Program-made: the position numbers
In this document: positions 27,501 through 29,827 of the stretch, in pieces
Position numbering within the stretch: position 1 is the stretch's first letter
Layout of the letters: the number at the start of each line of letters is the position of its first letter
Assembly (NCBI RefSeq): GCF_002854065.1
Contig: NZ_CP024147.1
Reading direction: 5' to 3' (one strand)
DNA: 64,000 nucleotides
Origin: Escherichia coli
GTDB taxonomy: Bacteria > Pseudomonadota > Gammaproteobacteria > Enterobacterales > Enterobacteriaceae

Positions 27501-29827
27501 TCAGCCGTTGCCGGTGGGGCGATAGGCCTGTTGTTCGAAAACGTGTTGATGGTGCTGCTCAAGCCCGTTCTGCCTGCTGCACTACCGCCAGCCAGCCTCT
27601 GTCCGTGGCTGTGGGCGCTCGGCACCATGACAGTCATCTCGCTGCTGGTGGGGCTACGACCGTACCGCTTGTTGTTGGCAACGCAGCCTTTACGCGTATT
27701 ACGTAATGATGTGGTAGCGAACGTCTGGCCGCTGAAGTTTTATCTGCCGATTGTCAGTGTGGTGGTTGTGCTGCTGCTCGCCGGATTAATGGGCGGCAGT
27801 ATGCTGCTCTGGGCGGTGCTGGCGGGCGCGGTAGTACTGGCTTTGCTGTGCGGTGTGCTGGGCTGGATGCTGCTGAATGTACTTCGCCGCATGACGCTGA
27901 AATCGCTGCCTCTGCGCCTGGCGGTTAGCCGCCTGTTACGTCAGCCGTGGTCAACGTTAAGCCAGCTTTCGGCATTTTCGCTCTCCTTTATGCTGCTGGC
28001 ACTGCTACTGGTGCTGCGTGGCGATTTGCTCGACCGCTGGCAGCAGCAGCTACCGCCAGAAAGCCCGAACTACTTTTTAATCAACCTCGCCACAGAACAG
28101 GTAGCACCGCTAAAAGCGTTCCTCGCGGAACATCAGATAGTCCCGGAATCGTTTTATCCGATGGTGCGGGCACGGCTGACGGCGATTAACGATAAGCCGA
28201 CAGAAGGTAATGAAGATGAGGCGCTTAACCGCGAACTCAATCTTACCTGGCAAAATACGCGGCCCGATCATAATCCGATTGTCGCCGGTAACTGGCCGCC
28301 AAAAGCCGATGAAGTGTCGATGGAAGAGGGGCTGGCGAAACGCTTAAACGTTGCCCTCGGCGATACTGTGACTTTTATGGGCGATACCCAGGAGTTCCGC
28401 GCTAAAGTGACCAGCCTGCGCAAAGTGGACTGGGAAAGTCTGCGGCCTAATTTCTATTTTATTTTCCCTGAAGGGGCATTAGACGGGCAACCGCAGAGCT
28501 GGCTTACCAGTTTCCGCTGGGAGAATGGCAACGGCATGTTGACGCAACTCAACCGCCAGTTCCCTACCATTAGCCTGTTAGACATTGGCGCGATTTTAAA
28601 ACAGGTCGGTCAGGTGCTGGAGCAGGTAAGTCGGGCGCTGGAGGTGATGGTGGTGCTGGTCACCGCCTGCGGTATGTTGCTGTTGCTGGCACAGGTGCAG
28701 GTGGGAATGCGTCAGCGTCATCAGGAGCTGGTGGTGTGGCGCACACTCGGTGCGGGGAAAAAACTGCTGCGTACCACGTTGTGGTGTGAGTTCGCCATGC
28801 TTGGGTTTGTTTCCGGCCTGGTGGCCGCAATTGGTGCGGAAACGGCACTGGCAGTGTTGCAGGCGAAAGTGTTTGATTTTCCGTGGGAGCCAGACTGGCG
28901 ATTGTGGATTGTTCTGCCGTGCAGCGGTGCGCTGCTGCTGTCGCTTTGCGGCGGCTGGCTGGGCGCACGACTGGTTAAGGGTAAGGCGCTGTTCAGGCAG
29001 TTTGCGGGGTGATGACAGGTGTTAGATTGCCTGATGCGCTACGCTTATCAGGCCTACGAATATCGTGCAATATATTGATTTTGCAAGATTTTGTAGGCCG
29101 GATAAGGCGTTTGCGCCGCATCCGGCAGTTGTGCGGCGGTGCCTGATGCGACGCTGGCGCGTCTTATCATGCCTACAAAACTGCACTCAACCGTAGGCCG
29201 GATAAGGCGTTTACGCCGCATCTGGCATGAACAGTGTGCATTTTGGCAATAAATATGAAACCAACTGTCATGTCGGTTTTTTTAAAGGCCGAAGGTGGTA
29301 AACCTTCGGCCTTAGCGACGTTTCCTCAGTTATTCAATAAACTGACGGATCAGTTCCAGCAGCGCGATTAGCGCCTTAAGAACGATGAGAACTTTATCGA
29401 GAAAAGTTTTCATCCGTTGCTCCCTTAAGGGAGAAAGACAATCACAGCTTACCCTTACGTTGCCTGTAACTATGATTTTCTTCATGTGCTAGATGAGGAC
29501 TGCCTCTCTCCAAATTAGAGCACCAGAATCAGCACCACCTGTATCCTGACCAGGACTTAAAAGTACTTTTCCGCACTGCGGTAATCCCTTGAGGCAGTAT
29601 CACTACTAGCGTCGGGATTGTATCGCCAACATAGCTGTTTGAATATGTAGGCATCCTGACTTATAATTCACTTGCTAGATGAGGACTGTTTCATTTCTGC
29701 CCGGAACCACCAAGTCTTGGGCGGAAAAAATAAAAAAAACGACTGTCATGTCGGTTTTTTTATATCTGTATTCTGGTGCAACCATTCTGTTCTCACGACA
29801 ATCGCCGTTTCAGAATACCGCCCATCA

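What the first reader, a model, noticed from the sequence alone, without database searches (positions are those of the whole stretch)
29240..29770. Candidate DinQ-like type I toxin-antitoxin locus at the ybbP-selU junction
A 27-codon minus-strand ORF (29330..29413) encodes MKTFLDKVLIVLKALIALLELIRQFIE, a single hydrophobic helix with a strong Shine-Dalgarno (AAGGGAG, 6-nt spacing). It closely resembles my recollection of the E. coli type I toxin DinQ (MIDKAIIVLGALIALLELIRFLLQLLN). An in-frame upstream ATG (29483-29485) lacks an SD, giving a nested-ORF layout like dinQ. On the opposite strand the motif TGCTAGATGAGGACTG occurs twice (29487-29502 and 29673-29688). Copy 2 has a near-consensus promoter (TTGAAT-17-TATAAT) and a hairpin plus T7 terminator, predicting an ~88-nt sRNA. 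Copy 1 lies antisense inside the predicted toxin leader. This matches the divergent sRNA architecture of dinQ/agrAB and zor/orz loci, but sits where K-12 carries the rhsD element, so it may be an unannotated TA locus.
Basis: partly seen in the sequence, partly recalled or inferred. Interest (0 to 1): 0.75.

Follow-up and report, generated by a model that had tools for sequence, protein, structure and literature searches.

The report
Second chromosomal DinQ-type toxin-antitoxin locus
This is a real but already catalogued extra copy of the E. coli DinQ/AgrB small-toxin and antisense-RNA pair, sitting as a ~570-bp optional insert between ybbP and selU in about a quarter of E. coli strains and apparently lacking the DNA-damage (LexA) control of the classic copy.

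Summary
The 27-codon minus-strand ORF (29413..29330) passes NCBI's curated DinQ model (40.9 bits, cutoff 30). The plus-strand RNA (29674-29763) passes Rfam AgrB (46.4 bits, gathering 40). The locus aligns collinearly with K-12 dinQ-agrA. It is not new as a kind. RefSeq already annotates the ORF as "dinQ" (51-aa long form, WP_001308457.1) in over 1,100 complete E. coli genomes. The dinQ-like (dql) family was defined in 2016, and a plasmid member (DqlB/agrB of pOXA-48) was validated experimentally in 2025. What I add: it is a second, accessory copy, because canonical dinQ is in 5422/5426 genomes and this copy in about 1327. It is a discrete ~573-bp indel (about 29244-29816) whose alternatives at this junction are an empty site or the RhsD element. 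It has one sRNA gene, not two. It has no LexA box, so the "damage-inducible" label is probably inherited, not earned. About 14% of carriers have a 108-bp deletion that removes the toxin start but keeps the sRNA. The sRNA is unannotated in the RefSeq records examined. Its 5' end, the leader target site and the mRNA 5' end co-vary across 11 family loci, and the leader fits the published SD-switch model in silico. Interest is low to moderate.

The parts
29244..29816 (.). Whole module: a ~573-bp segment present or absent as a block between ybbP/REP elements and selU(mnmH)
   Evidence: Empty-site alleles (H41, H43, H44) read GCATGAACAGCGTGCAC|AGAATCCCCCATCAC and lack this stretch. K-12 replaces 29019-29822 with the RhsD element.
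29245..29284 (.). Duplicate (80%) of the sRNA gene's 3' end and terminator at the left edge of the module. On the minus strand it forms a second hairpin after the toxin terminator
   Evidence: Direct repeat D1, spacing 478. Minus-strand terminator-like site 29279-29258. Absent from the Serratia and Photorhabdus relatives.
29285..29313 (-). Toxin mRNA 3' hairpin (GGCCGAAGG...CCTTCGGCC, then UUUAA), the family-conserved terminator
   Evidence: Inverted repeat I6, 12 nt, 100% complementary. Conserved with compensatory changes in 11 loci (columns 342-372).
29330..29413 (-). 27-codon toxin ORF (MKTFLDKVLIVLKALIALLELIRQFIE) plus stop codon
   Evidence: NCBIfam NF041472 toxin_DinQ 40.9 bits, cutoff 30. 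15/19 identical to K-12 DinQ. Relatives conserve the sequence from this start (M or V), and L010 has a stop 4 codons upstream.
29420..29438 (-). SD AAGGGAG (29426-29420) and anti-SD element UCUUUCUCCCUU (29438-29427), which form the SD-sequestering hairpin (elements 3:4)
   Evidence: Read directly from the sequence. The hairpin is kept through changes on both sides across the family (CUCCAU/AUGGAG versus CUCCCUU/AAGGGAG). SD unpaired probability is 0.01 in the full-length mRNA.
29483..29485 (-). Upstream in-frame ATG used by PGAP for its 51-aa CDS. It lies inside the leader and is probably not the real start
   Evidence: No SD. PGAP CDS WP_001308457.1. The upstream part is not conserved as protein in relatives. 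In K-12 only the 27-aa form is translated (PMC3567139).
29487..29511 (-). sRNA target site and element 2 of the leader (mRNA nt 100-124): 15-16 nt of perfect complementarity to the sRNA 5' end, extended to 25 nt with one mismatch and four G-U pairs
   Evidence: Homologous to the AgrB site G88-A119 of dinQ.
29589..29610 (-). Predicted toxin mRNA 5' end (+1 = G29610) and element 1, which pairs with the target site in the full-length mRNA
   Evidence: All 11 loci show a -10 element, 6-7 nt, then G[TC]T[AG]G. The long-range stem (columns 1-28 with 109-134) has a window-specific U-A to C-G compensatory change. Seen in the MFE fold.
29617..29622 (-). Predicted toxin promoter -10 (TACAAT), with no LexA operator over it
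   Evidence: Homologous position to the -10 elements of all relatives. No SOS-box pattern in 29240-29820, while the K-12 control is found.
29639..29667 (+). sRNA promoter TTGAAT-17-TATAAT
   Evidence: 10 of 12 matches to consensus, and the only hit in the region.
29674..29763 (+). AgrB-family antisense sRNA gene (~88-90 nt): 5' pairing tail, stem-loop with a CCACCAA loop, and a bidirectional intrinsic terminator
   Evidence: Rfam RF02891 46.4 bits, gathering 40. The fold matches AgrA and AgrB. No feature is annotated here in the RefSeq records listed.

Best explanation
The segment is an accessory chromosomal member of the DinQ/AgrB (dinQ-like, dql) family of type I toxin-antitoxin systems. The mechanism below is inferred by homology unless marked as shown. 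A ~330-nt toxin mRNA starts at about G29610 on the minus strand, from a promoter with a TACAAT -10 and no LexA operator. It is therefore probably made constitutively rather than on DNA damage. In the full-length mRNA the 5' end (nt 1-22) pairs with nt ~100-124, and the SD AAGGGAG is locked in a hairpin with CUCCCUU, so the mRNA is translationally inert. Removal of the 5' end frees nt ~100-113 (GGAGAGAGG) to pair with the anti-SD element. That opens the SD and allows translation of the 27-residue hydrophobic peptide, which by analogy with DinQ and DqlB inserts into the inner membrane and depolarises it. The divergently transcribed ~89-nt sRNA comes from a near-consensus promoter. It pairs through its 5' tail with nt 100-124, which re-closes the SD hairpin and probably creates an RNase III substrate, keeping the toxin off. 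Shown here: the sequence features, membership by curated profiles, collinear homology, family-wide covariation of the sRNA, its target and the mRNA 5' end, and the in-silico switch. Inferred: the transcripts, the processing step, toxicity and rescue.
For: The peptide passes NCBIfam toxin_DinQ (40.9 bits, cutoff 30), and its close homologues carry Pfam PF28061 DinQ. The sRNA passes Rfam AgrB (46.4 bits, gathering 40). The locus aligns collinearly with K-12 dinQ-agrA from terminator to sRNA terminator. In 11 loci from chromosomes, plasmids and a conjugative element, an AgrB-family gene lies divergent from the toxin with the same promoter and +1 layout. Every primary sRNA pairs best with its own leader. 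For the window the duplex is -57.0 kcal/mol against -28.8 +/- 3.3 for shuffles, best shuffle -42.7. RNAalifold on the 11 mRNAs gives 85 pairs, 32 with compensatory changes, including a window-specific U-A to C-G change in the long-range stem that is mirrored by the sRNA's C. The SD unpaired probability follows the published three-state pattern: 0.01 full length, about 0.18 after 5' truncation, 0.01 when the target region is removed or the sRNA is added. The K-12 control behaves alike. The mechanism is experimentally established for dinQ/agrB (PMC3567139, PMC5066626) and for DqlB/agrB of pOXA-48, including compensatory mutations and post-segregational killing (PMC12365149).
Against: There is no transcript, processing or toxicity data for this locus. 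The window's cognate duplex is the weakest among the cognate pairs (-39.3 against -41 to -59) and equals AgrA-dinQ, a pair that does not neutralise toxicity in K-12 (PMC3567139). The equilibrium co-fold does not discriminate cognate from non-cognate sRNAs. The toxin -35 element is poor, and the simple promoter scan did not find the toxin promoter. About 14% of carriers have lost the toxin start, and C-terminal frameshift variants exist, so selection on the toxin may be weak. High within-species identity could reflect recent ancestry rather than constraint.
Confidence: 0.8

Rival explanations
1. It is the SOS-regulated dinQ gene itself, a damage-inducible toxin as the RefSeq product name says, merely found at another map position.
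For: PGAP names it 'damage-inducible type I toxin DinQ' through an equivalog model. The peptide core is 79% identical to DinQ.
Against: Canonical dinQ-agrAB between gor and arsR is present in 5422 of 5426 genomes, so carriers have both copies. No SOS-box pattern occurs anywhere in 29240-29820, while the K-12 operator CTGTATGATTATCCAG is recovered by the same scans. The best pseudo-site matches 11/20 positions and has TAG in place of the critical CAG. The locus has one sRNA gene instead of two.
Confidence: 0.05
2. It is a decaying relic of a plasmid or ICE addiction module: transcribed or not, the toxin is no longer effectively expressed or controlled, and the locus persists by descent only.
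For: The closest relatives sit on conjugative plasmids, a conjugative element and integrase-linked DNA. The module is an indel with empty-site alleles. About 191 of 1326 carriers have a 108-bp deletion removing the SD, the start codon and most of the target site. Frameshifted or duplicated peptide variants exist. It has the weakest cognate duplex of the family.
Against: About 86% of carriers keep an intact ORF, SD, anti-SD, target site, both promoters and both terminators at 99% identity or more. The window carries lineage-specific compensatory changes in the long-range stem, the SD hairpin and the sRNA, which implies that selection acted on pairing after divergence from relatives. The module is kept at the same junction in Escherichia sp. 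E1V33.
Confidence: 0.12
3. The functional product is the sRNA acting in trans on other targets (canonical dinQ, plasmid dql toxins, or unrelated mRNAs), with the adjacent toxin being secondary.
For: The sRNA is retained in the toxin-deleted alleles. The in-silico duplex with K-12 dinQ is -47.8 kcal/mol, near the AgrA level, and it closes the K-12 +44 SD in the co-fold model.
Against: Its best partner among 10 leaders is its own. Pairing with the plasmid leaders tested is weak (-21.6 to -32.9). The co-fold model has no discriminating power. The 108-bp deletion may simply be recent.
Confidence: 0.03

Closest known systems
dinQ-agrAB of E. coli K-12 (type I TA; Weel-Sneve 2013 PMC3567139; Kristiansen 2016 PMC5066626)
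   Same: A 27-aa single-helix peptide with the ...IVL.ALIALLELIR core. A divergent AgrB-family sRNA whose 5' tail pairs with the leader about 75-100 nt upstream of the SD. An mRNA of about 330 nt with a long-range 5' stem, an SD/anti-SD hairpin and a conserved terminator. The same in-silico closed/open/closed switch.
   Different: A different map position (ybbP-selU, not gor-arsR), and accessory rather than core. No LexA operator. One sRNA gene, not two. An ATG start, not GTG. Three extra N-terminal residues and a tail about 3 residues shorter. A shorter perfect duplex (15-16 nt plus a G-U-rich extension, against 30/31).
dql (dinQ-like) genes, especially DqlB-agrB of pOXA-48 and IncI/IncX plasmids (PMC5066626; PMC12365149)
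   Same: The same family by leader, sRNA and peptide signature. It is non-canonical and associated with mobile DNA. A validated addiction module gives a functional precedent. The window shares the CUCCCUU/AAGGGA(G) SD hairpin variant with the IncI DqlB locus.
   Different: The window peptide fails the DqlB model (24.5 bits, cutoff 35) and lacks DqlB's longer N-terminal hydrophobic stretch. It is chromosomal, in a small indel with no mobility genes. DNA identity to the plasmid copies is only about 70%, over the ORF and leader. I could not establish whether it corresponds to 'dqlA' of the 2016 paper, because the figure and supplement are not held.
zorO-orzO / zorP-orzP of E. coli O157:H7
   Same: A divergent, non-overlapping sRNA that pairs with a long toxin 5' UTR needing processing. 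A possible distant relationship to the dinQ family has been noted (PMC11264685).
   Different: Rfam OrzO-P scores 20.7 against a gathering score of 60 here. The peptide matches the DinQ models.

Membership tests
DinQ/AgrB (dinQ-like) type I toxin-antitoxin family | Small (about 26-31 aa) single-helix hydrophobic peptide matching the DinQ profile | tested here: met
   NCBIfam NF041472 40.9 bits, cutoff 30, E 1.8e-10. BLASTP 15/19 identities to DinQ. Homologues carry PF28061. A direct Pfam-A scan returned nothing, probably because the library copy lacks PF28061.
DinQ/AgrB (dinQ-like) type I toxin-antitoxin family | Divergently transcribed, non-overlapping AgrB-family sRNA next to the toxin | tested here: met
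   Rfam RF02891 46.4 bits, gathering 40, full-length model match at 29675-29763. Near-consensus promoter and intrinsic terminator.
DinQ/AgrB (dinQ-like) type I toxin-antitoxin family | sRNA 5' end complementary to the toxin leader upstream of the SD, co-varying with it | tested here: met
   A 16-nt exact repeat, 0.04 expected by chance. Duplex -57.0 against shuffles -28.8 +/- 3.3. Its own leader is the best target for every primary sRNA in 10 loci. Caveat: it is the weakest cognate pair.
DinQ/AgrB (dinQ-like) type I toxin-antitoxin family | Leader with four elements giving mutually exclusive 1:2, 2:3 and 3:4 pairings that close or open the SD | tested here: met
   In silico only. Consensus structure with 32 compensatory pairs. 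SD unpaired probability goes 0.01, then 0.18, then 0.01, and the K-12 control reproduces the published behaviour.
DinQ/AgrB (dinQ-like) type I toxin-antitoxin family | Peptide toxicity (membrane depolarisation) neutralised by the sRNA through base pairing | not testable with these tools
   Shown for dinQ/agrB (PMC3567139) and DqlB/agrB (PMC12365149), not for this locus.
DinQ/AgrB (dinQ-like) type I toxin-antitoxin family | Expression of both transcripts and 5' processing of the toxin mRNA | not testable with these tools
   No transcriptome data are available here. No paper in the library holds the sequence.
Canonical dinQ (SOS regulon orthologue, 'damage-inducible') | LexA operator over the toxin promoter | tested here: not met
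   No match to CTGT-N8-ACAG (1 mismatch or fewer), CTG-N10-CAG or the published SOS-box patterns in 29240-29820. K-12 positive control found.
Canonical dinQ (SOS regulon orthologue, 'damage-inducible') | Position in the gor-arsR intergenic region with two sRNA genes (agrA, agrB) | tested here: not met
   The locus lies between ybbP and mnmH/selU with a single agr gene. The canonical locus is present separately in 5422/5426 genomes.
DqlB subfamily | Score at or above the curated cut-off of NCBIfam NF041473 | tested here: not met
   24.5 bits against a cutoff of 35.
Zor/Orz type I TA | OrzO-P family sRNA | tested here: not met
   RF02083 scores 20.7 bits against a gathering score of 60, and on the wrong strand.

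The most novel reading that the evidence does not exclude
A DinQ paralogue that has been uncoupled from the SOS response. Its toxin mRNA would be constitutively transcribed and controlled only by RNA structure and by a short-seed sRNA. It is carried as a presence/absence/RhsD polymorphism, and in about 14% of carriers it has become an orphan sRNA. If that sRNA (or chromosomal AgrA/AgrB) cross-regulates the two chromosomal toxins or incoming plasmid Dql toxins, the locus would be a natural case of antitoxin cross-talk or anti-addiction within one type I family.
Probability: 0.12. Interest if true: 0.5.

Novelty: already known. Interest (0 to 1): 0.22.

Why it matters
It matters modestly. It corrects an inherited annotation: the name 'damage-inducible DinQ' and the 51-aa length are applied to a paralogue that has no LexA box and almost certainly makes a 27-aa peptide. 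It also points to an sRNA antitoxin gene left unannotated in about 1,300 complete E. coli genomes. And it gives a clean natural series at one chromosomal junction (empty site, intact module, toxin-deleted module, RhsD element) for studying how type I TA modules are gained, kept and lost, and whether paralogous AgrB-type RNAs are insulated from each other. It does not reveal a new kind of system.

Tried and rejected
(2) A direct Pfam-A scan of the 51-aa ORF gave no hit, although precomputed PF28061 is listed for near-identical proteins; I treat this as a library-version gap. (3) The simple promoter scan did not find the toxin promoter. I placed it by homology across 11 loci instead. MAFFT had misaligned this stretch against K-12. 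(4) My first guess for the K-12 dinQ -10 was wrong and was corrected using the published SD numbering. (5) The supplements of the 2016 dql paper and of T1TAdb are not held, so I could not check whether this exact locus is one of the 14 published dql sequences or is in T1TAdb. (6) Literature searches for the peptide, the WP accession, the sRNA and target sequences, and for dinQ together with ybbP/selU/mnmH found nothing relevant. (7) The equilibrium co-fold cannot tell cognate from non-cognate sRNAs, so I rejected it as a specificity test. (8) Considered and rejected: a zor/orz identity, a LexA-regulated orthologue, and the 51-aa ORF as the real product. (9) The genome contigs pattern scan gave only 3 loci and did not explain the duplicated terminator.
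Full report
OBSERVATION. The window is E. coli. ybbP (26598-29012, +) is followed by REP elements (29020-29232), the candidate locus, and then selU/mnmH (30919-29825, -).
- the 27-codon minus-strand ORF 29413..29330 (MKTFLDKVLIVLKALIALLELIRQFIE);
- AAGGGAG 6 nt upstream of its ATG;
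- an SD-less in-frame ATG at 29485;
- two exact + strand copies of TGCTAGATGAGGACTG (29487-29502 and 29673-29688);
- a TTGAAT-17-TATAAT promoter (29639-29667);
- a hairpin plus T7 terminator (29730-29763).
The 16-mer pair is far beyond chance: 0.04 matches are expected even with 2 mismatches allowed, and none of 100 shuffles gave two.

WHAT IT IS. The peptide passes NCBI's curated DinQ model (NF041472, 40.9 bits, cutoff 30). It fails the DqlB model (24.5 bits, cutoff 35). Its core is 15/19 identical to K-12 DinQ. The plus-strand RNA at 29675-29763 matches Rfam AgrB end to end at 46.4 bits against a gathering score of 40, also in a whole-window scan. The locus aligns collinearly with K-12 dinQ-agrA through the terminator, ORF, SD region, target site, the conserved CUGACCAGGACUU and CACCACC blocks, the divergent promoters and one agr gene.

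RefSeq already annotates the ORF in its 51-aa form (WP_001308457.1) as 'damage-inducible type I toxin DinQ'. The 531-bp locus is present in 1327 of 5426 complete E. coli genomes, always chromosomal.

The family is published. Kristiansen et al. 2016 defined 'dql' (dinQ-like) genes in enterobacterial chromosomes and plasmids and noted strains that carry dql together with dinQ. T1TAdb predicted their antisense RNAs. DqlB/agrB of pOXA-48 was shown in 2025 to be a base-pairing-dependent addiction module. No paper in the searchable library mentions this peptide, its accession, the sRNA sequence, or a dinQ-like gene at ybbP/selU. The figure and supplements that would show whether it is one of the 14 published dql sequences are not held.

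A SECOND, ACCESSORY COPY. The canonical gor-dinQ-agrA-agrB-arsR locus is found in 5422 of 5426 genomes, so carriers have both loci. At the ybbP-selU junction there are at least four states.
- **Empty site.** It reads GCATGAACAGCGTGCAC|AGAATCCCCCATCAC (H41, H43, H44). This defines the module as a ~573-bp indel, about 29244-29816, with no obvious target-site duplication.
- **Intact module.**
- **Module with a 108-bp deletion.** The deletion lies between GATGAGA-ACT and GATGAGG-ACT. It removes the SD, the start codon, the first codons and most of the target site but leaves the sRNA gene (H39). It appears to account for about 191 of 1326 carriers: 1135 genomes keep the deleted segment, against 1326 that keep the sRNA region.
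- **RhsD element.** K-12 has it in place of window 29019-29822.
Escherichia sp. E1V33 has the module at the same junction.

Relatives of this peptide subtype (...ALLELIRQFI[D/E]) are rare in species-representative genomes: Serratia oryzae, Photorhabdus khanii and Escherichia sp.. Otherwise they sit on mobile DNA: a Salmonella conjugative element, an integrase/ParA-linked element, and about 1,640 mostly conjugative plasmids at ~70% DNA identity.

HOW IT MOST LIKELY WORKS. I fetched ten further loci: K-12, five plasmid loci, a Salmonella conjugative element, two Yersiniaceae chromosomal loci and a Salmonella mobile element. All have an AgrB-family gene at or above the gathering score, divergent from the toxin. 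All share one layout: sRNA start, 63-88 nt of spacer, a -10 element, 6-7 nt, then an mRNA beginning G[TC]T[AG]G. By this homology the window's toxin mRNA starts at G29610, downstream of TACAAT (29622-29617).

Aligning the 11 predicted mRNAs and folding the alignment gives 85 pairs, 32 of them with compensatory changes. The structure has three main features:
- a long-range stem between the mRNA 5' end and the sRNA target region (elements 1:2 of the published model);
- an internal stem-loop rich in covariation;
- the SD/anti-SD hairpin (elements 3:4), which switches as a unit between CUCCAU/AUGGAG and CUCCCUU/AAGGGAG.

The window has its own U-A to C-G change in the long-range stem, and its sRNA carries the matching C (GCUAG... 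where others have UUAG...). Two other loci change A-U to G-C, and their sRNAs start UUGG. So the mRNA 5' end, the target site and the sRNA co-vary three ways. Each primary sRNA pairs best with its own leader; the extra copies (AgrA, and the second IncI copy) do not.

Thermodynamic modelling reproduces the published K-12 behaviour. The SD unpaired probability is 0.05 at +1, 0.21-0.34 at +31/+44, and back to 0.05 with AgrB. The window behaves the same way: 0.01 full length, about 0.17-0.18 once 20 nt or more are removed from the 5' end, and 0.01 again when the target region is deleted or the sRNA is added.

I therefore infer the DinQ mechanism: an inert primary transcript, activation by 5' processing, translation of a 27-aa membrane peptide, and repression by the sRNA, which pairs with nt 100-124 and re-closes the SD. 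The 27-aa form, not PGAP's 51-aa form, is the likely product for four reasons. The upstream ATG has no SD. Conservation in relatives begins at the short start (M or V). One relative has a stop four codons upstream. In K-12 only the 27-aa form is translated and toxic.

WHERE IT DIFFERS FROM dinQ.
- **No LexA operator.** CTGT-N8-ACAG with up to one mismatch, CTG-N10-CAG and the published SOS-box patterns are all absent from 29240-29820, while the same scans recover the K-12 operator at its promoter. The best pseudo-site (CTGTTTGAATATGTAG) matches 11/20 positions and lacks the CAG. The 'damage-inducible' name is thus inherited from the model, not supported by the sequence.
- **One sRNA gene, not two.**
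- **ATG start, a different N-terminus and a shorter C-terminal tail.**
- **Weaker pairing.** There are 15-16 perfect pairs, then a G-U-rich extension to 25 nt. This is the weakest cognate duplex of the family and is numerically equal to AgrA-dinQ, which is inert as an antitoxin in K-12.
- **Duplicated terminator.** A 40-nt duplicate of the sRNA terminator lies at the left edge of the module (29245-29284). It is absent from the Serratia and Photorhabdus relatives, and its origin is unexplained.

LIMITS. No expression, processing or toxicity data exist for this locus. The equilibrium co-fold does not distinguish cognate from non-cognate agr RNAs, so cross-talk with chromosomal AgrA/AgrB remains open. 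Within-species conservation may reflect ancestry. The deletion allele and the frameshift variants show that the toxin can be lost.

VERDICT. The thing is a catalogued member of a published family: the toxin is annotated in RefSeq, and the sRNA is recognisable by Rfam but unannotated. The new details are that it is accessory and an indel, has no LexA box, has a single sRNA, and exists as an orphan-sRNA allele. They are useful for annotation and for TA evolution, but they are not surprising to a specialist.

Noticed in passing
window 29020-29232: A cluster of REP/BIME-type palindromes between ybbP and the module matches Rfam naRNA4 (79.1 bits) and ES036 (55.3 bits). The copy number varies among strains at this junction, from none to three units.
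   Followed up: partly
window 29245-29284 vs 29723-29762: A 40-nt direct repeat (80%, spacing 478): the sRNA gene's 3' end and terminator is duplicated at the opposite edge of the module. It is absent from the Serratia and Photorhabdus relatives. It could be a trace of a tandem array, a recombination scar, or an insulating terminator against ybbP read-through.
   Followed up: partly
window ~29386-29493 (allele in L004 = NZ_CP062824.1): A 108-bp deletion between GATGAGA-ACT and GATGAGG-ACT microhomologies removes the toxin SD, start codon and first codons, plus most of the sRNA target, but keeps the sRNA gene. About 191 of 1326 carrier genomes lack this segment.
   Followed up: partly
window 29019-29822 vs K-12 (L003 3838-11130): The ybbP-selU junction is a polymorphic hotspot. 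It can be empty (with variable REPs), hold the ~573-bp toxin/sRNA module, or hold the ~7.3-kb RhsD element. No K-12 sequence matches the module.
   Followed up: partly
window 29330-29485 (RefSeq WP_001308457.1): PGAP calls a 51-aa CDS from an SD-less ATG inside the leader and names it 'damage-inducible'. Both the length and the name look like over-annotation carried over from the DinQ model. The sRNA gene has no RefSeq feature.
   Followed up: yes
L008 1159, L012 1178, L013 1154, L014 2890 (window equivalent ~29541-29555): Several relatives have a CTG-N10-CAG inside the transcribed, conserved CCUGG...CAGG leader hairpin. A site of this kind was reported as a putative LexA box (HI 11.64) for a plasmid dqlB. 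It may simply be the RNA hairpin. The window has N9 spacing.
   Followed up: partly
L012 1557-1644: The IncI dqlB locus carries a second AgrB-family gene whose 5' end pairs poorly with its own toxin leader (-20.6 against -41.3 for the first copy). This parallels the AgrA/AgrB pair of K-12.
   Followed up: no
window 42813-42947: Rfam gathering-level matches to ES036 (42813-42855) and STnc480 (42881-42947) on the + strand. They are unrelated to the finding.
   Followed up: no
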